A stretch of DNA of 35,811 nt from Rotaria socialis (lineage: Eukaryota), in NCBI GenBank assembly GCA_905331485.1, contig CAJNYT010000045.1, positions 4,015 through 39,825 on the forward strand, given 5' to 3'. The notes under the pieces were generated by a model, which worked only from the letters and a program-made list of their open reading frames with translations, was not told the origin of the DNA and did not search any database. Shown here in pieces: positions 5,293-35,811 of the stretch (position 1 is the first letter of the stretch; the number at the start of each line of letters is the position of its first letter). A program made the translations under genes and the position numbers.

Positions 5293-5849
5293 TTCTTATG
5301 AAATTCTAGCACCATACTCGCCAAAGTCGTTGTTCTGAGTACTCACTCATGATCGTAACACAACTTGAGTAGATCTATTCAATGATTTCGGCAGATTTTT
5401 CATAGCTCGAAGTAGGATCTTCTGAGATTTCTTCAGTATTATCTTATCAGTGGGTGAAGTCTAATTTCGAGCTACGGAAAATATGTGAACATGACTGGAT
5501 AGTGTTCATCGAGTTCCACTTGGAGCATAGGTACGAGAATTGGAACATTGGTCGAAGTGACTATGGCCGAATTTTACAAAAAAAAGCATTTCAGGATTTT
5601 TTGGATTTTTCGAGATTCCAGGAGAATGGTGCAAGTCTAGTTAATCGAAATATACTATTCGGTAGGATATACGAGGTTCTACTAGTAATATGAGTATGGA
5701 CGTTGGAAAACTAGCTCTAAAGAGCATCGAAAGGTTTACTCGAATGCGATGCTAACTTCACCTACCAGATGGTCACTTAATACTTCTTACTGAGATAGCT
5801 TGAGTAAACTACAATCTAAAAAATGCTACTATACTTTAAGCGAGCAGCT

Positions 5850-9499: not shown

Positions 9500-10030
9500 C
9501 TTTTTGTGTACTCAAAAAGAAAAGAGTACACTATAGAATCGGACAGTGTGTCCGGCCGTCCGTTTATTCGATAACTCTTCACAATTACATTCGATTGAGC
9601 TGAAATTTTGCGCACAGAATTATCTCATCAATATCTAGGTCGAGTTCGAAGATGAGAAGGATCCGTCAAGAAATGGTTGAGTTGTCGAAAAAATTGTCAT
9701 TTTTGATCAGACCATCCCTGAGGAGGGGTACAGAGATTTTTCAAAAAAAACTTTTTTTTCTCAGAATTATCAACAACATATAAAAATCGAGTCAGTTTTT
9801 AACGCTGATGACAAATCTGATATTAGTTTTGAACTAAGCCATAGCTTTCTAACGAAACATCGCCTGAAAAACGTCTCAAAATGCACAAAAACTGCATCCA
9901 GAAATCAAATTGCCTAGTTTCTCATGATAATTTTCGTGTTCAGACATTCTAGAATGACTCATATGTCGCATGCACTTTTTGCAGTACACATAACTCTCGA
10001 ATGAAATCCGAAGTTTCCACATTTTTTTAG
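9500..10030 (+). mobile_element. Interspersed repeat family, copy 2; full length about 530 bp
   Basis: Same termini (tttttgtgtactcaaaaag... / ...ccgaagtttccacattt) and internal sequence as copies 1 and 3. The hairpin stem has diverged (gtgtactcaaaaagaaaagagtacac). Confidence 0.6.
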
Positions 10031-10567: not shown

Positions 10568-13500
10568 ATGGCTGATCCAAAAGTTACCGGTGGTATGAAT
10601 ATTTTAATTCTTTTGCATTACGATTCAATCCTCGTTGTTTTTTTTCTTCTTTGAATTTTAGTTTACCGAGTTCCTCCTTTCTACTATCTGCATGTACTTG
10701 ATCAAAATAAAAATGTAAGCCGACTTGAAGTTGGCCCACTCACATTTGTTAAACAAGATCATGAAAAAGTCCTCGTTGGGCCAGAACGCATGATAATAAT
10801 TCCGTATGTTGAAGTTGTTTTTCTTTCTTTGATTTCATTAAAAATTCTATGCATAACTAATTATCTAGTCCTCGCCATTATTGCGTCGTTGAAAATCCAG
10901 CTGTTCGTGATAAAAATGCGAAAGTTGTTATTGATTCTAATGGTCAAGTTAAGTTGTTACATTCGGATGTTGATATTCGATTTGCTCAAGAGCCATTTCC
11001 ACTCTATCCTGGTGAAATACTCAAACAAACTGTAACACCACTGAAAGTTATTGAGCCTAACTGTGCATTACGCCTTCGTGCGGTTTTGGATTTTATTGAT
11101 GAGAATGATCAACAGATACGTGCTGGAGATGAATTTCTCTTCTGTGGACCAGGTAAAACAGCAAAAAAAATATGCTAAATTTTTTAATGTTAAACATGTT
11201 CGAATAAATTTATTTCTAGGAACTTATCTGCCACGTAAAGAAGTTAGCGTTGAAGAACAAATAAAAGCTGTTATTCTGAAATCAAACGAAGCTGTTCGAT
11301 TACGTGCAAAAAAAGAGATGGTTGACCGCGATGGAATTGCACGCGAAACAGGCGAAGAATGGCTTAATCGTACTATTGGTTCATACTTACCATTAGCTTA
11401 CGAAGAAGTTGTTTCAACAGTTAAAGCCTATGTACTAACTGACAAAGTATGTGTTCTTAGGAATCAGTCGTCTTTTTTCATGATGTATTTATTTCATTGT
11501 CCTTTTTTTTCTTCCAGAAAGCTCTTCATTTACGAGCATTGGGCACATTTATTGATTCATTCAAACATAAACGTCTCAATGGAGAAGAATGGCTTGTATA
11601 TGCCTCTGATGCTGAAACATATATTCCAGATGTTTTTGAAGAGGTAGATATAATTAAATATATTTATTTCATAGATGAAAAATAATGAATAAAATATTTA
11701 GGTTGTTGGTGTTGTAGCAGTAACTGTATTAAATTCTCGTCAATACGCTGTTATTATTGATCCTGTTGGTTCAGATGGTAAACCACAACTTGGAAAGAAA
11801 AAGCTTGTTAAAGTATGCTAAATTAAAATCATATGAATTTTAAATTAAAATCTTTCGATTTTTTCTAAAGGGAGAAACAACATTCTTTCTTCAACCCGGT
11901 GAAAAATTAGCTAAAGGTATTCAGGATGTCTATGTTCTGGAAGACGATGAAGGGCTCATTCTTCGTTGTACTGAATCATTTAAAGAAGATGGAGTAAGTT
12001 AATACTTTGTGTGAAATTTTTATTTATCAATTGTATCCGATTGTTTTTATAGACGGTACTACGTAATCCCGGTGATCGTTGGATGATCCGAGGGCCCAAA
12101 GACTATATTCCAGCTGTAGAATCGGAAGTAGTACTCCGACGTAGAGCTACACCATTAGATGTCAACGAAGGTATTTATGTTCGAGATGTTAAAACTGGTA
12201 AAGTTCGATCAGTCATTGGCACTACATATTTATTGACTGAAAATGAAGAACTTTGGGAAAAAGAATTACCCGCCCAAGTTGAACTACTTCTCAATCAAGA
12301 TGCTCGATGTTTTGATGATAAATCAGCACAAAAAGCAACTATACCACCAAGAGATAAATCGAAAGTAGTTGCCTATCGAGTTCCACACAATGCTTGTGTA
12401 CAAATTTATGACTTCAAATCTAAAAAAGCACGCATTGTTTTTGGCCCTGAACTTGTTATGCTCGGGCCAGATGAGCAATTCACAATATTGAATTTATCCG
12501 GTGAAAAACCCAAAGTACCAAATAAAATTCGAGCTATTTGCCTTTTAATGGGACCCGAATTTTCAAGTGATATTGTAACAATCGAATCAAGTGATCATGC
12601 TCGTCTTTCACTCAGACTTTCATATAACTGGCATTTTGAGGTAAGAATTATAAGAGTTTACAAAGAAAAGAGAATGAAGTCTTTGTTTTTTTTTTACATT
12701 ATTTTAGGTTAATGATTGTAATGATCAAAAAGAAGTTACAAAACTTTTTTCAGTACCAGATTTTATTGGTGATTTCTGTAAAGCTGTAGCAGCTAAAATC
12801 CGTGGTACTGTTGCTGGTATTTCATTCGATGATTTTCATAAGAACTCAGCGAAAATCATTCGAACCTCAGTATTTGGTCTTGATGAAAATAAACATGTGA
12901 AAAAAAGACTAGTATTTCCACAAAATAGTTTGGTTCTGACATCGATTGATATTCAAAGTGTTGAACCAGTAGACCAACGAACACGAGATGCTCTTCAAAA
13001 GAGTGTTCAATTAGCTATTGAAGTAAGATGATAAAATACAATTGGTTGAGCTGTGATGTTTAACTTCAATCTATGTCATTTTTTAGATTACAACAAATTC
13101 ACAAGAAGCCCAAGCGAAGTATGTTTAACAAAAAATGAACTTCAAATTTTTATTTGCTTCGTTTTTCCTATAGACATTTAGCTTCACGCACAGAACAAGA
13201 AGCAAAGGGTCATTTAGAACGACAAAAAATTGCTGATGAAGCAGAAGGTAGAGTTTGATTTTATGTGAAATTGAAATTTTAAACATTTTCATTTTTATAG
13301 CTGAAAAGGAACGACGAAAATTATTAGAACTTCAAGCACTGTCATCTGCTGTTGAAACCACCGGTCAATCACGTGCTGAAGCTCAATCAAGAGCAGAAGC
13401 AGCTAAAATCGAAGGTGCAGCTGCCGTTGATCAAGGTATGTCTCATATTGAACATCTGTATCGATATAGATATTATATGTTGTCTTTTCTGTTTTTCAGC

Positions 13501-13907
13501 TACACTTCGTGCACAAGCGTCAAAGATTGAATCTGATGCTGAACTTATACGTTTAACACAAGCACGTCAACTTGAATTACATTATTCAACATCGACGACT
13601 AATTTAGAAATTGAAAAAGCAAAACGACTAGCCGACATTGAAATTTCCGAATTCAAAGAGCATGTTGCTGCTATCGGTCCAAAAACTATTCAAGCTATTG
13701 CTACTAGCGGACTCGATAATCAAGTAAGATTTTATCTTAATAAGAATTCATGCTACACTTTACTAACTGCTTGATTTTTTTCTCATTATTCAGGTTAAAC
13801 TTCTCCAAGCTCTTGGTATTAAGTCAACTTTGATCACTGACGGACGCAGTCCAATTAATCTTTTCAATACTGCCGTTGATTTAGTTGGCGCACCACAAAG
13901 ACAATAA
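10568..13907 (+). CDS. MVP: Major vault protein, copy 1 (14 exons, 839 aa)
   Basis: Exons: 10568-10592, 10662-10803, 10869-11152, 11220-11446, 11518-11643, 11702-11812, 11871-11993, 12053-12640, 12708-13022, 13087-13118, 13174-13247, 13301-13435, 13500-13723, 13794-13907 (stop TAA). Exon lengths sum to 2520 nt with phases consistent. All junctions are GT-AG. Product [66 protein letters not shown]...[45 protein letters not shown]...[40 protein letters not shown]...[61 protein letters not shown]...[22 protein letters not shown] aligns across its length to MVP (vault repeat domains, shoulder, cap-helix). Confidence 0.9.
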
Positions 13908-15007
13908 AACGATTGAGAACAAATCAATCAAGAAAAAACAAAAACTCATAAAATTTGAATTTCTATGTCCAGTTTTAGACACAAGACATTAGTCAGATTC
14001 TTAAAATAAAAACACATGTTTTTTTGTAAGAAGGACAGAACATTGTTTTATACTTATTATTTTTAATATATGTATGTGACCTCAGAATATAGCTTTTTCC
14101 ATTCGAAAAATAAAATAATTTAATAAAATTTGGTATATATATATATATGTTAATTTTATTGAAGTAATTGAGAAAGTTGAGTATGATACATAAAAAAAAT
14201 GATATTCTACCTGAAATGAAATCATTTTCAACGCTAACACAAACGCAAAGGCTCGATTGATTCTAGGGAAATATGAGTTTGGGAAATGCGAATGAATCAG
14301 ATTCGATTTAATTTAGTATTCACCAAAACATTTAGCTTCTATTCAAATGATATTTTAAATGTACTAAACAAAACAAAACACATTTGGGAAGAGTAAATCT
14401 TAAGAGGGCGATTTCTCAAGTGTGACTAAGCCAATGCAACGAACATTCTAACAAAAGATAAGCTCCGACGAGCCTCCGAAAATTGTCCCCCAACTACTAA
14501 TAACTTTGCTGAGTGGATCTTTATTTCAAGTGAAGTATTTGTAAATTAATGGAAGTATGAGATTTTCATCTATGTTTTCTGCCGACGACTCAACAAATCA
14601 CGAAAGTCGCTCTTACACTCTTAGGTTGTTTTTTCGAACTGAAATACGAAATTTCAATTTAAAATAAATTCACGTATCGCAATGAATTTTCGAGGTATTC
14701 ACAAGCCATAAAATAAAAACATCGAAATTGTCAAGGTGAAGTAAAGAAATGCATCGCCATGGGGTGCCTATTTTTGACGCACCTTTTAATACATTTGAAA
14801 AGAGCTAGGAAGTAGATAATAAATAGGCAGTGAAAAAATTGTTTCTTATGATGATCATCACAGTTTATTATTCATACATGAACTACACAATAAGTAGAGT
14901 GCACTTATATAGTTAAATTATTAATACGAAAACAAGAAGGGACGGACAAAAATTATTGTTTTTCGTCAACAAAAAGCAAGTTTTATCTAATAATTTTCTT
15001 CAATGCA

Positions 15008-18000
15008 TTAATTAGGTGCTCCACCCGCATTACTAATTGTATTTGCATTTAAACCACCTAAAAGTCCTTGTCCAAAACCCATTAGATTGATAGGTGAATG
15101 GCCATCAGTAACCAACATGGACTGAAGACCGAGGGCTTGCAAAAGTTTAACTTGTGTATCTGGACCTGAAGTTGCAATGGCTTGTATTGTTGATGCACCG
15201 ATTGATTCAATTTGTAATTTGAATTTGTCGGTTTCAATACGTGACATTTCAGCTTTTTTAGTAATTTCTAATTCATTCTGTTCACGTAAATAGTTAATTT
15301 CAGCTTCTCGTGCCAATTTTAAACGTGATATTTCAGCTTCGGCTTCAATTCGCGCAGCGTCAGCCCTGAGACGAGCTAAACAAATGAAAATTCATTTGTT
15401 CAATTGCATTGGAGAAATAAAATAAAATATCTATACCTTGTTCAACAGACGCTCGTCCTTCAATGAGAGCAGATTCGGCTCGACTTTGTGCTTCGGCTTT
15501 AGCTTGACCTGTGACTTCAACAGCCGATGATTCAGCTTGTAACAGGAGAAGTTGTTTTCGAACCTCTTCAGCTTCAGCATCATCTTTAATACGTTGACGT
15601 TCTAGTAAACCTTTTGCTTCTTGTTCTCGACGCGAAGCTTCATGCTTAGCAGCAGCTTCTTGTGAATTTGTTGTAATCTAAAATGCAGACATACACGAAA
15701 ATTAATCACCACAATTCAATCGATTGTCTTTTATCTTACTTCAATGGCTAATTGAACACTCTTCTGAAGAGCATCTCGCGTTCGTTGATCAACTGGTTCA
15801 ACACTTTGAATATCAATCGATGTAATGACAAGATTGTTTTGTGGAAAAATAAAGTTATCTCGTATTTTTTGATTTGCATCAAGACCAAATACAGACGTAC
15901 GAATAATTTGAGCTGAATTCTTATGAAAATCATCAAATTGTGTACCAGCAACAGCACCACGAACACGTGAAGCTATAGCTTTAGCTGCATCACCAACAAA
16001 ATCTGGTACAGAAAAAAGTTTGGATGCTTCTTTGTCGTCATCAATATCTGATATTTCAAAATGCCAATTGTATGAAAGTTGAAGTGAAAGACGAGCATGA
16101 TCAGCTGTTTCAATAACAATCACATCAGTAAAAAAATCTGGTCCAAGAAGTAAGCAAAGTGTTTGAATTTGATTTGGTTTTTTTGGTACACTGCCACTCA
16201 ATGAAAGTAATGTAAAATGCTCATCGGGTCCAAGCATAACAAGTTCAGGGCCAAATATAATACGTGCTTTCTTAGCTTTATAATCATAAATTTGTACAGC
16301 GGCATTGTGTGGTACACGATAGGTAACTAGTTTTGATTTGTCACGTTTGGCAGCATTTACGTTTGAACTTGTTGCTGTTGTTGCTGCTTGTTGTTGAGAT
16401 TGATTTTTATCTGATGTTTGACTTCGTGTGAGAACATTTCGTTCACTTAAAGCATCACGAGACAATAGTTCTTCAACTTTCTTAGGTAATTCTTTTTGCC
16501 ATAATTCTTCATCTTGTGTTAACATATAAGTTTCACCAATGACGGCGCGGACACAACCAGTTTTGATATCACGAACATAGATACCTTCATTGGCATCCAA
16601 TGGCAAAGCTTTTCGACGTGTAACAACTTCAACTTGTGTTGGAGGAATATATTCACTAAAATTCACAAGAATAATATTAATTTAGACCTTTCATAGAGAC
16701 ATTAAATATCTTACGTTGGACCACGAATCATCCAACGATCACCGGGATTTCGATTAACATTAGCTTGCGTATCTTTAAATGCTTCAATACATTTTAGAAT
16801 AACACCTTCATCTTCACCTAAGATAAACACATCTTGAATACCATTTTGAAGTTTTTCACCGGGTTGAAGAAAGAATGATTTTTCACCGACAACAAGTTTC
16901 TACGAAAGAAAACAAAATCAACATAATTAATCGCTCTGATTTCATTGAGATAAAAAACTTGCTTTTTTCCCTAATTGTGGTTTTCCATCAGCAACTGGAT
17001 CGATTATAACACAATATTGACGTGATGTCAATGTTACTACATTAACAACAGAAACTAATTGTTCATAGACACTAAGAATGTGTGTTTCAGTGTCAGCAAG
17101 TGTTACAAGCCATTCTTCACCATTCATACGTTCTTTACCGAATTCATCGGTAAAAGTTTTTAATGCACAAAGATGAAGAGCTTTTTTATCGGTTAATACA
17201 TAAGCATTTTCTACTGAAACCACAGTTTCCTAAAATTAACAAGATTTGAATTTCGCATACCGACGAGATTTTGCACTTACATATGCAAGTGGTAAATATG
17301 CACCGGTCTTTTTAATTAACCACTCTTCACCAGTAACACGCCGTTGGCCTGTACGATCAACGATTTCTTTTTTTGCGCAAAGCCTTATAGCTTGATTAGA
17401 CGAGATAACTGTAGCACGAATTTGTTCTTCAACGCTAACTTCTTTACGAGGAATATAAGTAGCTGGCCCTTCAAATAACCATTCATCTCCAGCCCGACGT
17501 TGTTCGCCTGCTGTTTCATCTTGAAAATCTAGGACAGCTTTTAAGCGTAACGCTGAATTAGCAGGAACAACTTTTAATGGAGTAACAGGCTTTAAAATAT
17601 AAAAAGTAGTTTTGTTTTATTCTCAATAGAAAATGTTTAGTGTTTTTTTTTATACTTGACGAAGAATTTCACCGGGATAGAGAGGAAAAGGTGATTGATC
17701 AGGTTGTGAAAGACGAATTTCCAAGTCAGCATGAACAAGTTTCGCTTGTCCATTGCTATCGAAAATAACTGCGCCAGCATCATTGCGTACTACAGGTGAT
17801 TCAATAACACAGTAATGACGGGGCCTAAAAACACATCCAAATTTTCACTTTCTTTCAGCGTCTTTTCTTAGATTAACAATTATAAACGTACGGTACTGTA
17901 ATCATTTTTTCTGGTCCGATGGTGACTGTTTCATTGTCTTGTTTAATAAATGTTTTGGGACCAATTTCAAGTCTCGTAACATTTGTATTTTGATCCAAAA

Positions 18001-19100: not shown

Positions 19101-20715
19101 GAACTCGCTATCAACTTTTATGTTTATCTCAACTATCAACTCTGTCTCTCAATTACATTTGAGCTTGAAAAGAGGGTATCAGTGTGAATTGTTCTTATGT
19201 TGTTTGTCGTTGTAATATAACAATGGCGAGAAAATATAGTTTTCAAAAACTTCATATCGTTGCAAGAACGAGTAGTAGCACTTAAAAACAAGTCAAAGAA
19301 ACAAGATAGACGAATAGTATTTGGCTTGAGTATATGACTTCGTGATTTAAAATACAATAGAAAATATTATGCAAACAGACCGAGATTTCATCATATTTTT
19401 ATCGGGTTATTAAAGAAAAAGGTCATATAATGTCACTTTTCTTAGCTGACACAAGATAGTACCTCTTAGTTGTCTGCTTGCCAATTCTCTGTTGAGTTGA
19501 TTACTCTTTATCGTTAGCCTATGTGAAAATAAATCTATAATCATATGTCTATGCACGTTATAATACACGTGTGAATAAATTGACATTGTTTTCAGAACAA
19601 TGCCCCAATTTTCTACTTGGTGTATCAATGTGACTACCTGATTACTATTGGGTTATATTCTTCGAAGCTACATCACCAAGAGAACAAACAGCAATGACCT
19701 CTCTACCGATGCCAATAGATGATTCTCCGAGATTGGTTTACATTTTCAGTATGGTTTCTATTATTATCTTCCTACTGATTATCGTCTGCTATATCTCAAT
19801 CGTTAGAGAGTGCTTAGAAGCAACACCTAGAAGAACACTGCCGACACCTCGATACTTTCAAATAGATGAGTATCCACAATTGGTCAACTCCTATGCTGAG
19901 CAACCCCTCGGTCAACCCGTGGAATTCTAACGCCATCAGATATCACCCATAATCGATCTCAACCAATATCAACAATGAATTTCGAAAACTTAAACTATAC
20001 CGATAATATTATTCAGTTTATTGGTTGACAACTTTATTGAAATAGTTTATTTCTTGGCAAGGATATATGTTGCTGATAAATGGGTGCCTAATATTGCTCT
20101 TTATACGAATGCTCCAATAACCGACTTCTGTCTTATGTTGTTCCACTTTTTGGTTAACTAGTGCACTAGTCTCTCCTTAATATGAAGAAGCTAAAAGCAG
20201 GCTCTTTAATTAAATGTTTCTTTCCTGATTGCTTTTAATCATAATCCAAACCTTATGCGATTGCAACCTATTTTCAGAGTGGTACACATCAAATAATTCG
20301 ATTGAGCATTTAATGCGTGAGAATGGCATGTATATTCTCCGGTTAATGTCAACATTTTCTCAAAAATTGCCAGGATGAGTTTACATATTTCGATAAAGAC
20401 AACTTCTTTCTGCAGATACAATTCAATTGTTATTGTTTTCAAAAATATGTTATACATAAAATTGACATATTCGTGTCGTAATGCGTATTTACCAAAAAAA
20501 ATCCTTTATCATCTTTACGAGATCTTTCTAAAAACTGATAATGTTATTTGATCAAAGAGACAAAATTGGTCGTTGCTACCAACTGTATTACATCCCAGCG
20601 ATACTGCTATAAATCTTGTCGTTGGTGGGATCATATTAACAAGTGAATGTTGATGGAATGACGATGTCAAATTTTTCATATGAACTTAAAATACAAGCAC
20701 AATAACAATAGTGAA

Positions 20716-22057
20716 TCATGAAAGCCCTACCGGCAACGACTTACTAAATACTGAACTTCCAAAACCAAATGAATTTTTATTTTGTGAAAAATGTACTGTC
20801 ATCGTTAACGAATCTTTGTCATTTGGATTTTTCAATCCGAACCATCCAAATAAATTGAACATAGCTAGTTTTAAATCGATCAAACGAGAGAAGTTTTGAA
20901 CGGACAAAAGTTGATAGTAGGTCATGTCTTTATCTATTTTGAAAAAGCAATCGTCTTCGACTTTAGACATATTCACTGGTACGTTTGTTTGAAAATGAAT
21001 AATATTTAGTGGTTCATTAGTGATGACACCATTCCAATGTGGCGTTACATTGAGATGACACTACAAAAAAACGAAATGAAAAACACTCCACAACGGGATA
21101 TATGACAAAACTAACTTCTGGCTCTGCTCGACCATGCATAAGCAAATTCTGTGAATCGATAATACTGAACGTGCCATCCGGTAAGCGAGTATTGAGCAAA
21201 ATTACTGGCTTCAAGCCGAGAAAGGGTGGTGGATTCAATAAGGAATTTCCAATAACACTTTGATACAAATCAACATTTGTGAAATCTACATTCTGATAAA
21301 CTCCATCACCAATGAATGATTGACGAAGATCAGCGCTCGTGAACTTTGCTTCATACATTTGGTTGTCACGAAATTTTGCCTTATTCAAATTGGCATTCTG
21401 AAAATTCGCAAGCGCAAGATTGTTCAACAGAAAGTTAGAACCAACCATTGACGCACTCTCAAACACTGCATATGTGAGAGTACAACCATCGAATATGACA
21501 TTTTCTGCGATGACTCCAGGCAAATAAAGAAAGGAAAGATCACAGACTTGTGTCGAAGATTGCACAAGCTTCATTCCACTAAAATCCGCCCCACGTATAT
21601 CAATTTTCGGTGTGATATCGTGTCGAATCAGACGACTTTCATACAAAAAAAGAAACACATCACGCTTACGGGTAGGGTCAAGATTTCTTAGGACCGTTAA
21701 TGTTTGAACGCGAATTTGCAGAAGAGACTTGTTAATATTTTGTTCAAAATTTTCATCTAAAAGAAGATCTCTCATATCATCCATATACTCTTTGAAGAGA
21801 ATCCTTCGATTCGTTTCATCGGCTTGTCTTTGATCTTGGTCACGTGTCGCCCTAGCCGCAGCATCTTGTTGTAACGTGAAGACAATCGTAAACACTCCAA
21901 AAACAATAGTTGGCAATGCAGCAAGTGTAAGCTTGAATATATTCATACATTTAATTGGCTTTGATTTCTTACGAGTCACCACATCAGATGACGTTTGTGC
22001 CGCAGATGATGACACGATTGAATTTCCTCGTGTGAAATCAAATGAACTGTTATCCAT
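20716..22057 (-). CDS. Pentapeptide-repeat single-pass membrane protein, tandem copy A (2 exons, 428 aa; C-terminal tail lost to stop)
   Basis: Exon 1 22057-21116, exon 2 21060-20716. The 55-bp intron has donor gaa|GTTAGT and acceptor tttttttgtag|tgtcat. The reading frame continues across the intron, and the exon 2 frame is conserved codon-for-codon with copy B. Product: about 45-aa N-terminal tail, hydrophobic helix LTLAALPTIVFGVFTIVFTL, a juxtamembrane charged segment, then about 24 consecutive pentapeptide repeats (ADFSG MKLVQ ... ANFQN ANLNK AKFRD NQMYE AKFTS ADLRQ ... VDFTN VDLYQ), then CHLNVTPHW...IIHFQTNVPVNMSKVEDDCFFKIDKD...FGLKNPNDKDSL...SKSLPVGLS*. The downstream 195 bp (20520-20715) still aligns in frame with copy B's C-terminal extension but carries TGA and TAA codons. 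Confidence 0.75.
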
Positions 22058-23379
22058 AGTTTGTTGAAAGATGAGAGCACGAAAAATTTCACGTATTATA
22101 ATAAATTCAAGGTTGATAGTATCTAAAATCTATATTGTGTTGTGATTCGTTCGAACATACAAAAAAAGTAAAAAGAACCAGTTATTTATACCTGTGTGGG
22201 AAGCTTTATATTAACATAATAGGCATTCGCAGCAAATTGAGTTTGACGGATGTCTATGATATCCTCTGAATCTGACCTCATCGTCAATTGTAACGTTTTC
22301 TATCACGAACTATATATTCCGAATGACGTACCTTTCACAATAGTTTTTCATAGAGTAGTCATTGTATCGATAGATAAAACAAAACAATCTCTCGACTGAT
22401 CTAACAGCTTTGTAGAATGAGAAAAAACATCTTCTATCATTGGCCAAAAGCGATCTTTTGAAAAATGTCAATTTATTAGCATAATTCACAAGATCAGTGT
22501 TGAGTGGCTAATGACATTTCTATTGAAAGTAAATGAATTCAATGTGTTAGTCAAAATATCAAGATATATTGTAGAAAAAAAAGTAGAACATCATCTAATA
22601 CATTGGATTAACATTTTTCTTTGTCATAAAAGTCGAAATTTCAATTGCATCTGATTAAAACTACCTGCTGTGACAATACGAAACCAGGCTTTGTGCTCTT
22701 CTGATGAGTAGTATGGATACGATGAAATATTTTCTGATTTCGACACAAACATTCTGCTAACAGTTACTTTTCGGACATCTGAGAATCCTTGGATTATTTG
22801 ATAATCTTCTCTCATGAACTAGGGAAAAGTCTACTGATGCCAATGCAATAGTAGCGATTGTTACAGTCATATTATTAGTCAACCCAATATTCTTTGCAAT
22901 TATGTCTACTTTTCGTATCTTGAAATTCAACAAATGGGTAGTGCACAGCAATTATTCAAATTGTATATTCTTCGAATAGCTGTTGGCAGTTAGAGACCTG
23001 CAGGTTGTAGATAAGTGTTCTGTTCTGCCCTAGTAGTACAGGGTAGATTGTAGGGTATAACTATTTTAATCTGCCAACCTGTAATTAACCTAATGTATTC
23101 CGTATTGTTGGTGTCTCGTCAGACCTATTCAGTAGGAAATGTTTGGAAGCCTGTAGCCTAGCTCACCATTGATTGAGATCGGTCTCGGTCACGGTGCATA
23201 AAACCAGATGTGCCGCTACTATATACTTTATACATCTATCTACTAAGTTTTCCACATAGTTTAGTTTCTTAGTTGACCACTTTATTAAGATGATTTATTT
23301 CTGGACGAAAAAGTCCTTTGCTCATAAATGGGTACCTAATATTGCTATTTTTAGTCTTCTCCTATAACTGACGGCTGCC

Positions 23380-23913
23380 TTTTTGTGTACTCAAAAAGTG
23401 AGTACACTCTAGAATCGGCCAGTGTGTACATCCGGCCGGCCGGTCGTAGGCACGATAACTTTCGAAAGGAGAGTCAGATCGTGATAAAATTTTCCATACA
23501 GTTCAATCGCATGAATATCTCGACCGAGTTCGAAGATGAGAAGGATCCTTCAAGAAATGGTTGAGTTATCGAAAAAATTGACATTTTTGACCATACCATC
23601 CCTGAGGAGAGGTACAGGGATTCTTTTCAAAAAACAAATTTTTCCCAGAATTATTCACAACATATACAAATCGACTCAGTTTTTAACGCTGATTTCGAAT
23701 CTGATATTAGTTTTGAACTAAATCGTAGCTTTCTAACGAAACATCGCCTGAAAGCCGTCTCAAAATGCACAAAAACTGCATCCAGAAATCAAATTGTCTA
23801 GTTTCTCATGATAAATTTGGTGTTCAGACATTTATTCTAGAATGACTCATATGTCTCATGCACTTTTTGCAGTACACATAACTCTCGGATGAACTCCGAA
23901 GTTTCCACATTTA
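23380..23913 (+). mobile_element. Interspersed repeat family, copy 3 (about 534 bp); an insertion present in duplication unit 2 only
   Basis: The flanks cctataactgacggctgcc | ... | ttctgttctactttttgtccagccgatgcac are contiguous in the paralogous unit 1 sequence (ccaataaccgacttctgtc ttatgttgttccactttttggttaactagtgcac at about 20110-20160). The element is therefore a post-duplication insertion. Same termini as copies 1 and 2. Confidence 0.7.
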
Positions 23914-24279
23914 TTCTGTTCTACTTTTTGTCCAGCCGATGCACTATTTTTTCATTGTTATCAAAAGACTAAACATATGTTTTTTAATGAAATATTTCTT
24001 TCATAATTGCTTTTAATCATTAACCAAAGCTTAGATGGTTATAATTTTTATCGTGGATTAGCTTTTATATGTGTACTTGGAGAATAGCCGCCAGCCTATT
24101 CGTTCATCAATGTGAAAATTTTGTTTTCAACAATTGTGAGTAAGATCATATGACGTTTCGAGTTCGTAGCTACATTTCACAGAACTATAATATCTATGAA
24201 GGCATCGTCGTGTTGAGAACACACAGTAATTTTTTTATTTTTTTCAAAAACATTGTATACATAAGATTCATTGTAATAT

Positions 24280-25818
24280 CTACAAGGTCTTTCTATAAAT
24301 TGATAATTTCACTTGATCGAATAGACAAAATTGATCGTTACTACTAGACACAATACACGCCAGCAATAGCACTATAAATTTTGTCTTCTCCGGAATGATA
24401 TTGACAAGAGAAAGTCGCTGGAACGATGTCAAATTCTTTATAACCACTTGAAATACAAGCAGAATAAATACAGTGAATAGTGAAAACTCGGTCGATAATG
24501 ACTTACTAAATATTGAACTTGCAACATCAATTGAATTTCTGTTCGGTGAAAAATGTATAGTCGCCAATAAGGAATCCATGTCATTTGGATTTTTCAATCC
24601 AAACCATGCTGATAAATTGAACATGGCTAATTTAAGATCAATCATATGAGAGAAGTTTTGAACAGATATGTGTTGGTAACTGGTCAGATCTTTATCAATT
24701 ATAAAGAAACAGGCGTCTCCGACTTGAGACACGTTCGCTGGTACATTTGCTTGAAAATGAATAATTTTCATTGGGTCATTGTTCTTTACATCTCTCCAAT
24801 GTGACGTGAAATTGAGATGGCACTAGAAGAAGCGCAATGAAAAATATTCTAAAACGCAATATTCTGTAAAACTAACTTCCGTCTCAGCTTGATCACTCAA
24901 AATCAAATTTTGCGAATTGATATTACTGAACGAGCCGTTCGGTATACGAGTATTCATCAAAATATTTGGCTTAAAGCCGAGATACACTATTGGATTCAAT
25001 AATTCATCTCCAATGATACATTGATATAGATCTACATTAGTTAAATCCATATTTTGAACAACGCCACCATGAATGATTGATTGAACGAGATAGGCACCGG
25101 TAAACTGCGTTTGATAAAGCTGATCGTCGTGAAATTGAGCTTTAGTAAGATTGGTATTTTGAAAATTAGCACGTAATAGATCACTCAAAATAAATTAAGA
25201 GCCAGCCATCGATGAATTCTCAAATACGGCGTCTATGAGAGTACAACCATCGAATGTGGTATTTTCGAGGTACACTCCGGGTAAATGAAGAAAGGGAAAT
25301 TCGCATGACTGTGTTGATGTTTGTATGAGTTTCATTCCACTAAAATCTGCCCCACGTATATCAATATTTGGTGTGTGATCGTGTCGAATTAAACGGCTTT
25401 CATACAGAAAAATAAAAACATCCCGTTTACGAGCCCGATCAAGATACATCAAAACGGTCAATGTTTGTACTCGAATCTGTAATAGAGACTTGTTGATATT
25501 TTGTTCGAAATTTTCATCTAAAAGAAGATCTCTCATATCATCCATATACTCTTTGAAGAGAATCCTTCGATTCGTTTCATCGGCTTGTCTTTGATCTTGG
25601 TCACGTGTCGCCCTAGCCGCAGCATCTTGTTGTAACGTGAAGACAATCGTAAACACTCCAAAAACAATAGTTGGCAATGCAGCAAGTGCAAGCTTGAATA
25701 TATTCATACATTTAATTGACTTTGTTTTCTTACGAGTCACCACATCAGATGACGTTTGTCCCACAGATGATGACACGATTGAATGTTCTCGTTTGAAATC
25801 AATTGCATTTTTGCCCAT
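24280..25818 (-). pseudogene. Pentapeptide-repeat single-pass membrane protein, tandem copy B; in-frame TAA inside the repeat domain (probable pseudogene or needs sequence verification)
   Basis: Exon 1 25818-24877 (942 nt, same length as copy A exon 1), 54-bp intron (gaa|GTTAGT ... ttcttctag|tgccat), exon 2 24822-24280. TAA at 25195-25197 replaces the AAC codon of copy A (MAGS* versus MVGSN) in the same frame with no frameshift. Exon 2 extends about 65 codons beyond copy A's stop and encodes a second hydrophobic segment FSLFTVFILLVFQVVI. The N-terminal 60-residue TM region is nucleotide-identical to copy A. Confidence 0.7.
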
Positions 25819-26689
25819 GATTCTTTGAATGATAAAGACACTAAAAAAATCTGAGAAATCAAAATCAAAATCGATATTATCTAAAAGCAATATTGCAGAA
25901 AAACTTCTCTGAAAAATTAATTAACACTTTCTATCTAAAAATATGCATTCGTCTAGCTAAATCGCACCTCTCTATTTAGTATTTCAATATCATGGGAGTC
26001 GTTCTGACAACTTCTTAGATAGACTTCTTGTAATGTGAAGAAAACGCCGAATAATAACAATTAAAATTATCGTATCACCGATGATCTCATGAAAAATGTT
26101 AATATAGTGGCATTATTAATAAGGTGAATATTGACGTGCTAGTCGTACTTGTATTCAAAGCAAATAAACTCGATATATCAGTGGCGATATCAAGTTAAAA
26201 CCTACAAAACAGTATCCCAATATCATTGAATACATTAGATTAGCATTTTTCTTTTTCATAATAGTCGCGATTTCAATTGTGTTAGATTGAAACTACTAGT
26301 TATCAAAATACAAAGGTACACTTAGTGTTTTTCGTATGAATCATATTTGCATTATGAAACATTCTGTGACGTCGACATTAATATTCTACCCACAGTTGAT
26401 TTCCATACATCTGACAATCGCTAGATTGTTTGATACTGTTTTCTAATAAAAAAAACTTTATTAGATAGACTATGTGGTCAAGTAATATAGAATGACTATC
26501 ACATGTTCGATAATTACCTATCTCAAGTTAAAATATACTCATTTAAATTCATGAGGTTGTCCAGCGAGTAAGATATATGTATGGCTATCACTGTCGAATC
26601 CGCCCGCATCCACTCCCCGTTTATCATTACTCTATCACCGATCGAAACAAAGTGATCAATCATGCAACACTGTAATTTGAAAAAACGTC

Positions 26690-31494: not shown

Positions 31495-31895
31495 TATGAT
31501 GCGTTCGGAGAATATTCACGGAAACTCGATTAAGTGCTAGGGAACCAAACTTAGCAGATATAATAGATATAGAGATATACAGCATATAGGGAGGAGGGGG
31601 GGGGTCTAGGAGATACAGGATATATATTTTTTTCTCTTTCATCTCTTAATTTTTTAAAATTATAACTCAACATAAATAAAATTTTCCGTCACAGATATTA
31701 CTGATATCAATATTTATTTGTTGAGCCTTGGTCATTGCTTATCAATCTCCTATAACTTCTATAACTCCTGTAACCCCTAGATCTCCTAGGCCCCCTATAT
31801 GCTGTATATCTCCCTATCTATTATATCTGCTAGGTTTGGTTCCCTAGCACTTAATCGAGTTTCCGGGGATATTCTCGGAACGCATCTAATCAATT
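31495..31895. repeat. MITE-like inverted repeat: two arms of about 118 bp (about 90% identical) around a 170-bp AT-rich spacer
   Basis: Left arm gcgttcggagaatattcacggaaactcgattaagtgctagggaaccaaacttagcagatataatagatatagagatatacagcatatagggaggagggggggggtctaggag. Its reverse complement recurs at about 31783-31895 (ctcctaggccccctatatgctgtatatctccctatctattatatctgctaggtttggttccctagcacttaatcgagtttccggggatattctcggaacgc). Contains a G10 run at the inner end of the left arm. Confidence 0.6.
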
Positions 31896-33159
31896 TCACA
31901 TTCCAACACCTATCCGTACATAAATATGTAAAATTAATGTAGCATATATTGTTTATCGGTCTTAATTTGAATATAAAAAGATTGAAGTTCATTCAAACAT
32001 GACAAATCTAGTCATTATTTTTGTTTCTTTTTAATAAACATGATTAGTATGATTTGTCTATGAATATTTTGTAAGCTGAGATTTTATATAGTAATATAAT
32101 AAGTTTAATGGAATTACACGCATGACCTGCTAAACTTTTAAACTTGATACACATGTCCAGCAATATTGCGCTCGAACATACTGTGATGCTAACGTAAGAA
32201 CATCAAAGAACAAGAAACGATTGTCGAATTTTTAATCTGCATAAAGCGACGCATATGTATGCATATACAAATCACGTAACCAAAATGTTGACATTAACGC
32301 TCAATTATAAATTCTCTTGTTTTCATGATTAGAATCATTAAACAGCATTTACTTGTTTAGCTTCACTAACCACCAATCAAAGAACATCTAAGAATAATTT
32401 ATTCATTTTTATTGTACAAAATGAATTGAACATGTACAGTTTCAAATTTGAGATATAGTTAGTCTTTGTTTTTGTTAGTTGAGATCATTGTAAGCTTGTT
32501 GTATAAAAATGAGAAGTAACTACCAATATACACGAAATGATTTCTTTCGAATAAAACTTCAAACTATCGCTCGCGGAAAACCTAGATTATTCATTACTCA
32601 CAAGATGCTACATCAAATATAAGTAATTTCGTTTTTTTAAAATTTCTTTCAATAATAAATATTAATTGTCATTACGAATCAGAGACCGTTACAAACAGGG
32701 CAAAATATAGAGATCAATCATGATAGTTTTGTCTATCAAATGATATACGGTAGATTTTTCAGTCAATTATGTGAAGATTATGATCGATTACAATGCATGT
32801 CATTATATGCGCCAGTCGCTATGAACTCTGTCACTGTCTAATTCGGACAATACCACTGTCCTCATTTTTACATTATTTAATTCAATTATAAAAATAAAAA
32901 TACTGGCTAAAGAGGAATATTTTCTGACGGTTTTGGTACATGCATAGTTTTGGCAAACGATAATCAAAAGTAATAAATGATGACGATAGAATTTCATTTT
33001 ATGAAAGTTAAAAAAATAAATGATTATTAATAATCGATTATGGAATTTATTTCAAGATTTCATCAAGAAACCATTACAATTAAACTAATTTCATATCAGC
33101 ATGCTTTGATGAAACGAGTAAATGAATTGGCTCAACACAAAATAAATCATTTGATCTAC

Positions 33160-33245
33160 CCATGCAATAAAAACCGCATGAAAATCGGCGGTTAACCGCG
33201 GTTATACCGGTCCGGTTACTGGCTCCCATGTCAGTGTAATTTTCG
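33160..33245 (-). repeat. Inverted copy of the GGGAGCCGGTAACCGG(A/C)CGG repeat (left boundary of a candidate foldback element)
   Basis: The reverse complement of cggcggttaaccgcggttataccggtccggttactggctcccatgtca is tgacatgggagccagtaaccggaccggtataaccgcggttaaccgccg. This matches 35148-35200 (tgaaatgggagccggtaaccggagcggtaataccgcggttaaccgc). Confidence 0.55.
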
Positions 33246-34099
33246 GCAAAACCTGTTGCGGTATTTACAACATGGGTAATCTTAGATGTTAATAGTTGAC
33301 AATGAGCAACTAAACTACAATTATCTCCGACAAAAAAATAGAATTTTTTTTTATCATTAGAATGTTTAGAAATTTTCAATACATATTTTGAATACTTATG
33401 ATAAATTTGATTAAAATTAAATTCTCTATCAGTCATAATTCGACTGTTATTTTCGTTATCTTCATCATCGTTTTTATTTGTTCGATTAATTTTATTTGAT
33501 AATTTTTTATTCATACGCTTAATAACATTATTTGACATTAAAAGTATCATAATACTTGTACATATGTCAAGTAAACCTGTTAATTCTTGATCTAGCCGAG
33601 AATCTTCATTAATATTTATTAAGAGCCATTCCGCGTAATCCACAACCTATTCATGTAGAAGTTGCTCAATCGATGGAAACCGATTTGACTCCTTTATGTA
33701 TAGGTTCGTAGGGGAAAGAGTTTGATGAATTTCTGCGCAAGCCGTTTCAAAAAATATTGTTTCGTTCCTGAGAGCACCCTCCGAAAAAGGTGACATTTTT
33801 TGAGATTTTTTGTAACATTTATATCTATTCATGAGTACATCTGTTTTGGTTGAAGTTTATATTATAAGTCGACCTAAGTTTTATCTATTTTTCTTAAAAG
33901 AAACAAACTCAAATAGGTGAGTCATCTGTGAGTTGGTTGGGGCGACAAAGTCGAGGAAAATTTCTACTGTTTTTACGATATTGTGCATGTATATAATGGT
34001 TGAACAGTTTCTATCAGAAAGCTGAAATTTTGTCCACTGGGAGATCTTATCAAGTACTAACTCTGATAAAATATTCAGCTCTTCAACTAGCTCCTATGG

Positions 34100-34875
34100 C
34101 TCATGGGATCCTCGTCAAAAAAGAAACCTTGATCAAAATCACCATTTTCAAGGAGAGATGTTTATAGCAAAATCAGACCTGCAGAAGTTCTGTCATTATG
34201 ATTTCAAACTGCATACATAGTACTACAAAGTTCTGCAAAAATTAGGGTGGGACAAACTATATTACCGTTCAGAGCCTTATCTGAAGTTGAGTAAAAGAGC
34301 TGTATATTTTTAGCAAAATTCTTTCAGATTTGTTCCGAAATAAATAACAACATGATATAATAGAAAGAAACTTACTATCTACTTTAGGTGAGCACACAAT
34401 CCTCTACTCATTGAGGTATAAAGATCCTTTGAAAGTGAGAAAAAAAAAATTTCGACAAAAAACCGTGGAGGGGAGCGCAACATTAGTTTCATTATCGAAA
34501 TCCCTGTATTTCCCTCCATGGTTTTTATCGAAATATTTCTTTCTTACTTTCAAAGGATCTTTATGCCTCAATGAGTAGAGGATTGTGTGCTCATATATAG
34601 TAGATAGTAAGTTCCTTTCTATTATGCAGAATTGTCATTTATTTGTGAACAATTATAAAATAGTTTAGCTTACAATATACCGCTTTTTATCTCATTTTCA
34701 GATAAGGCTGTGCTGAGCAATATGCATGGTCCCATCCCAATTTTTGCAGGACTTTGTAGTACCATGTGTACAGTTTGAAACCACCAAGACAGAACTTATA
34801 CAGACCTGATTTTGCTATAAATATCTCTCCCCAAAAATGGTCATTTTCATGAAAATCGCATTTTTGACGAGAATC
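34100..34875. repeat. Long hairpin palindrome of about 780 bp (foldback-like)
   Basis: Inner arms 34354-34445 and 34530-34620 are essentially perfect reverse complements (gaaagaaacttactatctactttaggtgagcacacaatcctctactcattgaggtataaagatcctttgaaagtgag versus ctttcaaaggatctttatgcctcaatgagtagaggattgtgtgctcatatatagtagatagtaagttcctttc). Outer arms 34100-34330 and 34690-34875 are about 80% complementary (for example aatttttgcagaactttgtagtactatgtatgcagtttgaaat versus aatttttgcaggactttgtagtaccatgtgtacagtttgaaacc). The centre, near 34490, is also a small palindrome (aaaaccgtggagggga / tccctccatggtttt). Confidence 0.6.
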
Positions 34876-35099
34876 ACTTTCGTCTTAGAGGTTAGCTACG
34901 GAGCTAAAATTTCTATCGGAGTAAGTACTTATCAAGATCTGATTGCAGCCTAAATTTCAGTTCTCTTATATGATTCGTTCAAGCCGATAGGTACACGCAC
35001 AAAATCTCGAAAAGTGAGGAATTTTTCATGAATTCTGTTATTCCAGTCAACTGTTTCACGATTTAAGCAGTTCGCATGTCGCGAATACCACTTCAATTT

Positions 35100-35400
35100 T
35101 TGCGGTAAACCGCGGTAATTTTAGAAAAGCGGTAAATTTATATGAAATGGGAGCCGGTAACCGGAGCGGTAATACCGCGGTTAACCGCTAGTTTTCCGGT
35201 ACCCTTTTTATACCGTCATCATATAGGAAAAAAGATGCCTAAAATAGCCCGATCAATGACTTTTAGCAACAATTTTTTATAAACGCTCAGCGAACCGGTT
35301 AATCGAAAAATACCGGCGGTAAATTTGTGTTGATGGGAGCCAGTAACCGGAGCGGGAAAACCGGGGAAAACCGTCAATTTTACTCCGGTTTTTCCAACAG
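35100..35400 (+). repeat. Two direct copies (period about 185 bp) of the GGGAGCC(G/A)GTAACCGGAGCGG repeat, in inverted orientation relative to 33160-33245
   Basis: 35140-35200 agcggtaaatttatatgaaatgggagccggtaaccggagcggtaataccgcggttaaccgc. 35318-35380 ggcggtaaatttgtgttgatgggagccagtaaccggagcgggaaaaccggggaaaaccg. Confidence 0.55.
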
Positions 35401-35559
35401 GGGTTAGGAGGGGACTCTCAGAAAAAATCGAATATCTCCGAAATGGTACAATATTTTTTCAAAACGGCCTGCGCAAAAAATTCATCAAACTTTTCCCCCG
35501 ACAAACGTAAACAGAAACAAGTCGAATCGGTTTTCATCGATTGAGCAGGGTCGGTCGTG

Positions 35560-35750
35560 GCATACGCGGAATGGCTCATATACTAGTCACCAGAGCATCA
35601 ACCAGGCCGTGTTTTTGTAGGCCTGGCCGGTTCGTGACAGGCCTTTGCATTTCAAGCCTGCCTGTGCCTGTCAACTAATTTGTTCGGCCTGGCCTGCCTG
35701 CCTGTCATTCTCTACGGCCTGCCTGGTCTGCCTGACAAGGCCTGTCAATT
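35560..35750. repeat. GC-rich simple repeat built from GCCTG / GGCCTG units
   Basis: ccaggccgtgtttttgtaggcctggccggttcgtgacaggcctttgcatttcaagcctgcctgtgcctgtcaactaatttgttcggcctggcctgcctgcctgtcattctctacggcctgcctggtctgcctgacaaggcctgtcaa. Strong local composition shift relative to the AT-rich window. Confidence 0.5.
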
Positions 35751-35811
35751 TTTTTTAATGCTAATATCATTACGAGGATAGAATAGAAACATGTAATTAA
35801 TGTTGAGAATG

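What the first reader, a model, noticed from the sequence alone, without database searches (positions are those of the whole stretch)
33160..35400. Candidate foldback element: 780-bp hairpin flanked by inverted and direct GGGAGCCGGTAACCGGAGCGG repeats
A near-perfect inner palindrome (about 90-bp arms) is nested inside diverged outer arms, about 780 bp in total. It lies between an inverted copy (33160-33245) and two direct copies (35140-35200, 35318-35380) of a GC-rich about 50-bp repeat. Long terminal inverted repeats built of short subrepeats enclosing palindromic DNA are characteristic of foldback-type transposons. The structure would also be a fragile or cruciform-prone site.

The AT-rich ORFs that the track calls at 33080-33832 overlap these repeats and look non-coding.
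Basis: seen in the sequence. Interest (0 to 1): 0.5.

Follow-up and report, generated by a model that had tools for sequence, protein, structure and literature searches.

The report
Nested small transposons in rotifer DNA
This stretch of a bdelloid rotifer (Rotaria socialis) genome is an ordinary pile-up of small non-coding mobile-DNA relics: a roughly 2-kb hairpin-shaped repeat with a tiny "MITE" transposon inserted in one arm, another copy of that MITE nearby, and a third element next door, not one compound foldback transposon.

Summary
The repeats and the palindrome are real, but their sizes and relationships differ from the finding. The window is Rotaria socialis (bdelloid rotifer) DNA. 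Three other assemblies carry the same structure at 99.3-99.6% identity, and the arms differ by about 20%, so it is not an assembly chimera.

The GC-rich "GGGAGCCGGTAACCGG" repeat is the core of a MITE family. The left copy (33159-33276, 118 bp) has ~20-bp terminal inverted repeats and a TA target-site duplication. Two independent paralogous loci show the empty site. Another copy lies at a different R. socialis locus.

The two "direct copies" form a 331-bp block (35073-35403) inserted into one arm of the palindrome. With that block removed, the palindrome runs from 33623 to 35577. Its arms are 869 and 888 bp, 80% identical, with a 39-nt loop and sharp GAGCCATTCCGCG termini. No tandem subrepeats, clear target duplication or other copy was found.

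It abuts a truncated ORC4-like pseudogene fragment on the left and a 1.1-kb hAT-like element on the right.

Verdict: a nest of known kinds of non-autonomous DNA elements. I could not settle whether the big palindrome was ever mobile or arose by local inverted duplication. Low interest.

The parts
33157..33158 (.). TA target-site duplication, left copy, of MITE R1'
   Evidence: Window reads GATC-TA-[CCCATG...CATGGG]-TA-ATCTTAG. Empty sites in L008, L007 and L006 read GATC(A/G)...TA... with a single TA.
33159..33276 (-). TIRs are CCCATGCAATAAAAACCGCA / CCCATGTTGTAAATACCGCA. The core GGGAGCCAGTAACCGGACCGG is at 33207-33227.
   Evidence: It is absent from paralogous loci L008 and L006/L007: the alignment jumps from 33277 to 33158. 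TIRs match 15/20. No ORF of its own.
33277..33278 (.). TA target-site duplication, right copy, of MITE R1'
33299..33616 (-). ORC4-like pseudogene fragment (equivalent to residues ~245-360 of P0122), truncated at its 5' side within ~6 bp of the palindrome terminus
   Evidence: phmmer and tblastn hits to P0122 and P0128; P0128 has AAA_16 + ORC4_C and is named ORC subunit 4 of Didymodactylos carnosus. No other ORC4 pieces within +7.6 kb. Junction alignment.
33623..35577 (.). FB1: long-inverted-repeat (foldback-type) unit. 1,955 bp in the window and 2,088 bp in the other three assemblies. Termini are GAGCCATTCCGCGTA... / ...TACGCGGAATGGCTC.
   Evidence: Self-BLAST and arm alignment. The collinear middle segment beats 1000/1000 shuffles. 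Present in L003-L005.
33623..34472 (+). FB1 left arm (about 850 bp of paired sequence; 869 bp when measured to the loop midpoint)
   Evidence: 80.4% identity to the right arm over ungapped columns. By zone: terminal 84%, middle 74%, outer palindrome 79%, inner 87%.
34473..34511 (.). FB1 central loop (39 nt) between innermost stems CCGTGGAGGG / CCCTCCATGG
34512..35577 (-). FB1 right arm, interrupted by the R1 block. In this haplotype it is also shortened by a 132-bp deletion.
35073..35403 (+). The outer termini are R1-type (CCCAT.../...CAGGGG) and are flanked by TT/TT.
   Evidence: R1 copies are 78-84% identical pairwise. The left arm lacks the block. The terminus reads CCCATATCGCG in L004. R1a's terminus matches the independent copy in P0127.
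35404..35405 (.). Junction of a 132-bp deletion specific to the window's haplotype. The missing piece is FB1 right-arm sequence present in L003-L005.
35583..35590 (.). CTAGTCAC: left copy of the 8-bp target-site duplication of the neighbouring hAT-like element
   Evidence: 8/8 identical copy after the right TIR in L003/L004
35591..35811 (+). Left end of a 1.11-kb hAT-like non-autonomous element that runs off the window. TIR is CAGAGCATCAACCAGGCC, with GGCCTG-type subterminal motifs.

Best explanation
The locus is a nest of independent, non-autonomous DNA elements in a gene-poor stretch of the Rotaria socialis genome.

(1) **R1 is a small MITE family.** Its copies have terminal inverted repeats and insert at TA, duplicating it. 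This is the Tc1/mariner-pogo ('Stowaway-like') style, presumably moved in trans by a transposase encoded elsewhere. One 118-bp copy sits in an ORC4-like pseudogene fragment. A 331-bp two-core block sits inside the right arm of the palindrome.

(2) **FB1 (33623-35577) is a separate foldback-type unit.** It has two ~870-bp arms, a 39-nt loop and discrete GAGCCATTCCGCG termini. It is old (arms ~80% identical) and has no coding capacity. It is most likely a decayed long-inverted-repeat transposon relic that arrived before the R1 block.

(3) **A hAT-like 1.1-kb element** with an 8-bp duplication later landed 5 bp from FB1's right end.

Shown: the anatomy, the R1 insertion with its empty sites, the nesting order, and reproducibility across assemblies. 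Inferred: that FB1 was itself once mobile, and which transposases served R1 and FB1.
For: - **Organism and reproducibility.** P0121 is a 100% match annotated in R. socialis. The same structure occurs in three other assemblies at 99.3-99.6% identity.
- **R1 is a MITE.** The 118-bp element has 15/20 TIRs and a TA/TA duplication. Uninterrupted empty sites occur in L008 and L006/L007. A further copy is fused to a cathepsin exon in R. socialis protein CAF3412321.1, on a different contig.
- **FB1 is one palindrome.** After excising the block, the arms are 869 and 888 bp and align terminus to centre. The weak middle segment is collinear and beats 1000/1000 shuffles. The outer boundaries are sharp.
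- **Left terminus.** It coincides within ~6 bp with the loss of ORC4 homology relative to L008 and L009.
- **Arm identity.** The termini (84%) and centre (87%) are better conserved than the interior (74-79%), p = 2.6e-5.
- **TE-nest context.** There is a hAT-like element with a perfect 18-bp TIR and 8-bp TSD, a further small foldback at 31498-31886, and no called genes for 10 kb to the right.
- **Literature.** Foldback-like DNA elements and MITEs are reported in bdelloids (PMC2861651, citing Arkhipova & Meselson 2005; PMC7943196).
Against: - No second copy of FB1 was found. The 21/22-mer core has 0 hits in viral and metagenome contigs. A concatenated translation search gave nothing. There is nothing in about 80 kb of fetched rotifer loci. 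The R. socialis genome itself could not be searched.
- FB1 has no convincing target-site duplication. The best candidate is 6/9 for a 9-mer, roughly p 0.1 before correcting for the nine lengths tried.
- The upstream half of the ORC4-like gene is not found beyond FB1's right end, so FB1 is not a simple insertion into that pseudogene.
- L006/L007 carry the same truncation without FB1.
- R1's transposase source is untested. The R1 block is flanked by TT/TT, not TA/TA.
Confidence: 0.6

Rival explanations
1. FB1 was never mobile. It is a local inverted duplication made during double-strand-break repair or replication template switching (fold-back priming or MMBIR). That event copied ~870 bp of pre-existing right-hand sequence in reverse and joined it to a broken ORC4-like pseudogene. 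The R1 and hAT-like elements inserted afterwards.
For: - No other FB1 copy was found.
- There is no clear TSD.
- The left end is a breakpoint where the ORC4-like gene is truncated and its upstream half is missing.
- In this model the right 'terminus' is simply where copying began, so no coincidence is needed.
- A short unique loop of 39 nt is typical of fold-back priming.
- Bdelloids are known for efficient DSB repair (PMC8494291, PMC7943196).
Against: - The termini are better conserved than the interior, which is easier to explain by past functional constraint.
- L006/L007 show the same ORC4 truncation without FB1, so the truncation may predate FB1 and not be created by it.
- The surrounding DNA is a transposon nest containing other small foldbacks.
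- R. socialis is a non-desiccating species (PMC7943196).
Confidence: 0.3
2. One reading: one compound foldback transposon whose long terminal inverted repeats are built from the GC-rich GGGAGCCGGTAACCGG subrepeats and enclose the palindrome.
For: One inverted and two direct copies of the repeat do flank the inner palindrome. Short CGGTWA/ACCGCGGT motifs are concentrated there.
Against: - The left copy is an autonomous-looking insertion unit with its own TIRs, TA TSD and empty sites.
- Host ORC4-like sequence lies between it and the palindrome.
- The right copies interrupt one arm of a larger palindrome whose other arm lacks them.
- The repeat order is not mirror-symmetric.
- A further R1 copy occurs alone at an unrelated locus.
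Confidence: 0.03
3. The palindrome is a chimeric assembly join (inverted-read or haplotype-scaffolding artefact).
For: Palindromes reported in the first A. vaga assembly were later judged to be artefacts (PMC8494291). One of the other assemblies (L005) has an N-join nearby, inside the hAT-like element.
Against: - The arms differ at about 20% of aligned positions and by many indels. An artefactual join would give identical arms.
- The same structure is present in four assemblies, counting the window.
- One arm carries a MITE block and a haplotype-specific 132-bp deletion.
Confidence: 0.01

Closest known systems
Stowaway-like / Tc1-mariner-pogo-derived MITEs (TA-flanked miniature inverted-repeat elements)
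   Same: R1' is short (118 bp) and non-coding, has ~20-bp terminal inverted repeats, and inserts at TA and duplicates it. It has clean empty sites in paralogous loci and further copies at other loci.
   Different: The terminus (CCCATG...) was not matched to any known transposase's TIR. No library of named MITE or TE families (Repbase/Dfam) could be searched. The nested 331-bp block has two cores and is flanked by TT, not TA.
Foldback elements (Drosophila FB; Galileo/1360-type long-TIR elements; the 'foldback-like DNA TE insertion' reported in bdelloid gene-rich contigs: Arkhipova & Meselson 2005, as cited in PMC2861651)
   Same: FB1 consists almost entirely of two long inverted arms (~870 bp) with a short loop, discrete symmetric termini and no coding capacity. 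It lies in a TE-rich, gene-poor stretch.
   Different: There are no tandem subrepeat arrays in the arms. There is no convincing 9-bp (FB) or 7-bp (Galileo) target duplication. No other copies were found. The arms are 20% diverged. The 2005 paper itself was not available to compare sequences.
hAT-superfamily non-autonomous elements (hobo/Hermes-type termini)
   Same: The neighbour at 35591 onward has a perfect 18-bp TIR beginning CAGAG, a perfect 8-bp TSD and no ORF.
   Different: It is not part of the reported finding, only its right-hand neighbour. No transposase partner was identified.
Repair-generated inverted duplications / palindromes (fold-back priming, MMBIR)
   Same: A short unique spacer between the arms, no TSD, one end at a gene breakpoint, and apparently single copy.
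   Different: Both ends are sharply defined, and the termini are better conserved than the interior.

Membership tests
TA-type (Tc1/mariner-pogo, Stowaway-like) MITE, applied to R1 | Small size (tens to a few hundred bp) and no coding capacity | tested here: met
   118 bp (33159-33276). The only ORF across it is the chimeric host read-through.
TA-type (Tc1/mariner-pogo, Stowaway-like) MITE, applied to R1 | Terminal inverted repeats | tested here: met
   CCCATGCAATAAAAACCGCA vs CCCATGTTGTAAATACCGCA, 15/20. The block in FB1 has the same type of termini.
TA-type (Tc1/mariner-pogo, Stowaway-like) MITE, applied to R1 | TA target-site duplication, with a single TA at the empty site | tested here: met
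   TA at 33157-8 and 33277-8. L008, L007 and L006 have one TA and no element. The nested block is flanked by TT/TT.
TA-type (Tc1/mariner-pogo, Stowaway-like) MITE, applied to R1 | Multiple dispersed copies in the genome | tested here: inconclusive
   There are three cores in this locus plus one copy at a cathepsin locus on another R. socialis contig. Genome-wide copy number could not be counted. There are 0 exact core matches in metagenome or viral collections.
TA-type (Tc1/mariner-pogo, Stowaway-like) MITE, applied to R1 | Cognate autonomous transposon with matching termini | not testable with these tools
   The R. socialis genome and TE libraries are not searchable here.
Foldback (FB-type / long-TIR) transposon, applied to FB1 | Element made up mostly of long inverted terminal repeats with a short or absent middle | tested here: met
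   Arms are 869/888 bp and the loop is 39 nt.
Foldback (FB-type / long-TIR) transposon, applied to FB1 | Arms built of tandem short subrepeats (classical Drosophila FB) | tested here: not met
   TRF finds no arrays within 33623-35577, apart from a 10-nt x2 repeat inside the nested MITE.
Foldback (FB-type / long-TIR) transposon, applied to FB1 | Target-site duplication (9 bp for FB/MULE-like, 7 bp for Galileo/P-like) | tested here: inconclusive
   9-mers match 6/9 (about p 0.1 in AT-rich DNA, uncorrected) and 7-mers match 3/7. The element is old enough for a TSD to have decayed.
Foldback (FB-type / long-TIR) transposon, applied to FB1 | Evidence of mobility: other copies or an empty site | tested here: inconclusive
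   None was found in the collections reachable. The host genome was not searchable. The left end coincides with an ORC4-homology breakpoint.
hAT non-autonomous element, applied to the neighbour at 35591+ | 8-bp TSD and TIRs beginning YARNG | tested here: met
   CTAGTCAC on both sides (8/8). TIR CAGAGCATCAACCAGGCC is perfect over 18 bp.

The most novel reading that the evidence does not exclude
FB1 may not be inert. The higher identity at the hairpin tip and at the termini (87% and 84%, against 74-79% between them) could reflect recurrent hairpin-templated gene conversion. Alternatively it could reflect selection on a transcribed long-hairpin locus that feeds the small-RNA silencing machinery of an asexual animal. 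Or FB1 could be the first delimited member of a still-recognisable foldback family in Rotaria with a decayed 9-bp (MULE/FB-like) target duplication.
Probability: 0.08. Interest if true: 0.45.

Novelty: new member of a known kind. Interest (0 to 1): 0.15.

Why it matters
It matters little beyond annotation. The work delimits a TA-type MITE family and a ~2-kb foldback-like unit in Rotaria socialis. It shows that an annotated 156-aa 'protein' (P0121) and the N-terminus of a cathepsin model (CAF3412321.1) are read-through of these repeats. It also gives a worked example of a real, diverged, reproducible palindrome in a bdelloid genome, in contrast to the assembly-artefact palindromes of the first A. 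vaga assembly. If FB1 proved to be a repair-generated inverted duplication, it would be a small data point on DSB-repair outcomes in bdelloids.

Tried and rejected
- **Exact look-ups.** Look-ups of four window ORFs using the first possible start codon all failed. The source was found only after a phmmer search revealed the real gene-call start.
- **Rfam and tRNA.** There is nothing at gathering threshold across the window. The only permissive hit in 32.8-35.8 kb is a sub-threshold mir-722 match (21 bits against a cutoff of 81). There are no tRNAs, so no SINE-type origin.
- **R1 core scans.** Viral contigs gave 0 hits and metagenomes gave 0. Prokaryotic genomes gave 2 hits. The one examined (L001) is a chance 21-bp match in a 64%-GC bacterial contig; the second was not inspected.
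- **Palindrome core scans.** Viral contigs gave 0 hits and metagenomes gave 0.
- **Indexed protein searches.** The 187-aa ORF returned only itself. A 1,576-aa concatenation of all stop-free stretches of FB1 and R1 returned nothing at E <= 10.
- **Other look-ups.** P0127's contig is not on record. Arkhipova & Meselson 2005 is not held in the library.
- **Considered and rejected:**
  - GGGAGCC as an element terminus. R1 homology continues on both sides of it.
  - R2/R2' as two copies of a separate MITE. They are collinear with the rest of the arms.
  - piggyBac (TTAA), PIF (TWA), hAT (8 bp) and P (7 bp) target duplications for FB1.
  - L006 as an FB1 empty site. Its similarity to the right flank is in the wrong orientation and belongs to another MITE-like unit.
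Full report
**What the window is**

The window has sparse ORFs, about 33% GC, split Major Vault Protein exons and pentapeptide-repeat ORFs, so it is eukaryotic. The best named MVP hit is Adineta steineri, at 89% identity over 65% of the query.

A full phmmer search with the 187-aa ORF overlapping the finding returned a 100% match, P0121 (156 aa). It is annotated 'unnamed protein product [Rotaria socialis]'. Looking up its exact sequence fetched the same locus from three NCBI assemblies: GCA_905331015.1 (one of the R. socialis individuals of Nowell et al. 2021, PMC7943196), GCA_965120325.2 and GCA_965120295.2. Each locus reaches 7.6 kb beyond the window's right edge.

Yes, with corrections.

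- The GC-rich 21-mer occurs three times against none expected.
- Gapped self-comparison gives a 1,072-bp palindrome at 33956-35027 and the three R1 copies.
- The order R1' - R2 - palindrome - R1a - R1b - R2' is not mirror-symmetric, which already argues against a single nested hairpin.
- The inner arms are about 87% identical over ~150 bp, with one ~50-bp stretch at 49/50, so they are not near-perfect over 90 bp.
- As single-stranded DNA, the central 321 nt fold into a long stem with a 39-nt loop (34473-34511), at -106 kcal/mol and z = -18.7.

**Not an assembly artefact**

All three other assemblies reproduce 33160-35405 at 99.3-99.6% identity to the window. The arms differ at about 20% of aligned positions and carry many indels. 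One arm carries an insertion and a haplotype-specific deletion. A chimeric join would give identical arms. This differs from the palindromes of the first A. vaga assembly, which were artefacts (PMC8494291).

**What the GC-rich repeat is**

Locus L008 is a 6.3-kb rotifer contig from a metagenome carrying a frameshifted ORC4-like pseudogene. It aligns to the window at 86% identity, but the alignment jumps from 33277 straight to 33158.

At base level:

- Window: ...GATC TA [CCCATGCAAT ... ACAACATGGG] TA ATCTTAG...
- L008, and independently L006/L007: the same flanks with a single TA and nothing between.

The inserted 118 bp (33159-33276) has terminal inverted repeats CCCATGCAATAAAAACCGCA / CCCATGTTGTAAATACCGCA (15/20). 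This is the signature of a TA-inserting miniature inverted-repeat element (MITE). The short CGGTWA/ACCGCGGT motifs concentrated there are internal to the MITE copies.

A further copy exists elsewhere in the same species. The first ~59 residues of the R. socialis protein CAF3412321.1 (P0127) are a read-through of an R1 copy, including the R1a-type terminus (SHVANTGSIFAV against SHVANTTSIFAV). The rest of that protein is a papain-family last exon.

**What the palindrome is**

The other assemblies carry 132 bp that the window lacks, at 35404/35405. This segment is collinear, in inverse orientation, with left-arm sequence around 33803-33916. The key 30-nt match (23/30) beats all 1000 shuffles.

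R1a, a 70-bp spacer and R1b form one 331-bp block (35073-35403) with R1-type outer termini. When it is excised, the two arms are 869 and 888 bp and align from the GAGCCATTCCGCG termini to the loop:

| Zone | Identity (ungapped columns) |
|---|---|
| Terminal | 84% |
| Middle | 74% |
| Outer palindrome | 79% |
| Inner palindrome | 87% |
| Overall | 80.4% |

Heterogeneity between zones is significant (p = 2.6e-5).

So there is one foldback-type unit, FB1, at 33623-35577. It is 1,955 bp here and 2,088 bp in the full haplotype, and about 1,757 bp before the MITE block inserted. The MITE block is present in only one arm, so it arrived after the arms formed. FB1 has no ORF longer than 76 codons and no tandem subrepeats.

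**The flanks**

*Left.* Positions 33299-33616 (minus strand) are homologous to residues ~245-360 of ORC4-like proteins. These are P0122, a continuous 366-aa ORF in its own contigs, and P0128, named ORC subunit 4 of Didymodactylos carnosus.

- The homology stops within ~6 bp of the FB1 terminus, whereas L008 and L009 read through.
- No upstream ORC4 sequence is found in the next 7.6 kb.
- The annotated 156/187-aa ORF is therefore a chimera: FB1 terminus, then an ORC4-like relic, then MITE read-through.

*Right.* Five bp past FB1 lies a 1,111-1,112-bp element with a perfect 18-bp TIR CAGAGCATCAACCAGGCC, a perfect 8-bp duplication CTAGTCAC and no ORF. These are hAT-like features, and the element explains the GGCCTG-rich tail of the window. 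More inverted-repeat units follow, and no genes are called for 10 kb.

**How it most likely works**

- *R1 (confidence about 0.9).* R1 copies were cut and pasted into TA sites by a transposase supplied in trans. The insertion itself is shown. The enzyme is inferred from the TA rule of the Tc1/mariner-pogo group, which is established knowledge.
- *FB1 as a transposon relic (about 0.5-0.6).* I favour an old, now immobile, long-inverted-repeat element. The reasons are its discrete symmetric termini, termini better conserved than the interior, a left end at a homology breakpoint, and the TE-nest setting with other small foldbacks (31498-31886; L008 4745-4864).
- *FB1 as a repair product (about 0.3).* The serious rival is a repair-generated inverted duplication. 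It explains the missing target duplication, the apparent single copy and the lost upstream half of the ORC4-like gene equally well.
- *A complication.* L006/L007 carry the same ORC4 truncation without FB1. This weakens any argument that FB1's arrival caused the truncation.

**Comparison with known families**

- R1 meets the tested defining features of a TA-type MITE. Its transposase partner is untested.
- FB1 works like a foldback element. However, it fails the classical subrepeat criterion, and its TSD and copy-number tests are inconclusive. I therefore do not file it as a member of the Drosophila FB or Galileo families.

**Novelty and score**

This is a new member of known kinds. Bdelloid MITEs, hAT elements and foldback-like elements are all reported (PMC7943196; PMC2861651). 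Interest is low (0.15). The main practical value is in correcting two gene models and in documenting a real, reproducible palindrome in a bdelloid genome.

Noticed in passing
window 35583-35811, continuing to about +0.9 kb beyond the window (L004 reverse-complement 12645-13756): A hAT-like non-autonomous element of 1,111-1,112 bp. It has a perfect 18-bp TIR CAGAGCATCAACCAGGCC, a perfect 8-bp TSD CTAGTCAC, GGCCTG-type subterminal motifs and no ORF. It lies only 5 bp from the foldback's right terminus.
   Followed up: yes
window 31498-31886: A second, younger small foldback. Its arms are ~94-110 nt at 94% identity, with a ~200-nt loop, and it is unrelated in sequence to FB1. It is present in all assemblies, and L003 has a 51-nt vs 19-nt length difference at 31589-31607.
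   Followed up: partly
window 11051-13774 (+) and 15572-17460 (-): Two Major Vault Protein gene copies in convergent (inverted) orientation, 70-93% identical at the nucleotide level over the exons. This is a gene-scale inverted duplication.
   Followed up: no
window 20012-22818 and 23260-26450: A tandem duplication (period ~3.76 kb, 72-77% identity) carrying pentapeptide-repeat ORFs (21017-22057, 25195-25890). The domain is bacterial-type, so horizontal origin is possible, as is common in bdelloids. This was not tested.
   Followed up: no
window 33617-33622; L006 ~1420; L007 ~280: The ORC4-like fragment is truncated at the same residue (~243-245), within 8 bp or less, in the window and in L006/L007. 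Their upstream sequences are unrelated. L008 (a pseudogene) and L009 (an intact ORF) read through. This is unexplained.
   Followed up: partly
window 35404/35405: The window's haplotype lacks 132 bp of FB1 right-arm sequence that all three other assemblies have. The deletion abuts the end of the nested MITE block and has only ~2 nt of junction microhomology.
   Followed up: yes
L004 reverse-complement 13762-13948 (outside the window, right of the hAT-like element); L006 725-793: A 187-bp MITE-like unit with TIR CAC[C/T]GTTTGGGG[C/T]GGG. L006 carries a ~70-nt stretch similar to its left end and adjoining flank.
   Followed up: partly
P0127 = CAF3412321.1 (R. socialis, a different contig): In this annotated cathepsin-like protein model, the first ~59 residues are a read-through of an R1 MITE copy abutting the last papain-family exon. 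This is a probable gene-model error.
   Followed up: partly
window 9593-10027 and 23477-23915: A dispersed direct repeat of about 430 bp, 86-95% identical, with a weaker third copy at 5039-5338. It was not characterised.
   Followed up: no
window 2224-2299; L005 reverse-complement 12651-12795: A CpG-rich 10-bp tandem repeat (ATACGGCCGT x7). Similar sequence appears after an N (an assembly join) inside the hAT-like element in assembly GCA_965120295.2. From the record coordinates, the three other assemblies' contigs appear to start at about window 2.7-5.7 kb.
   Followed up: partly
L008 4745-4864: A 120-bp near-perfect palindrome (59-nt arms, 95% identity, 2-nt spacer) in a related rotifer contig. 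Hairpin-type small elements appear to be common in these genomes.
   Followed up: no
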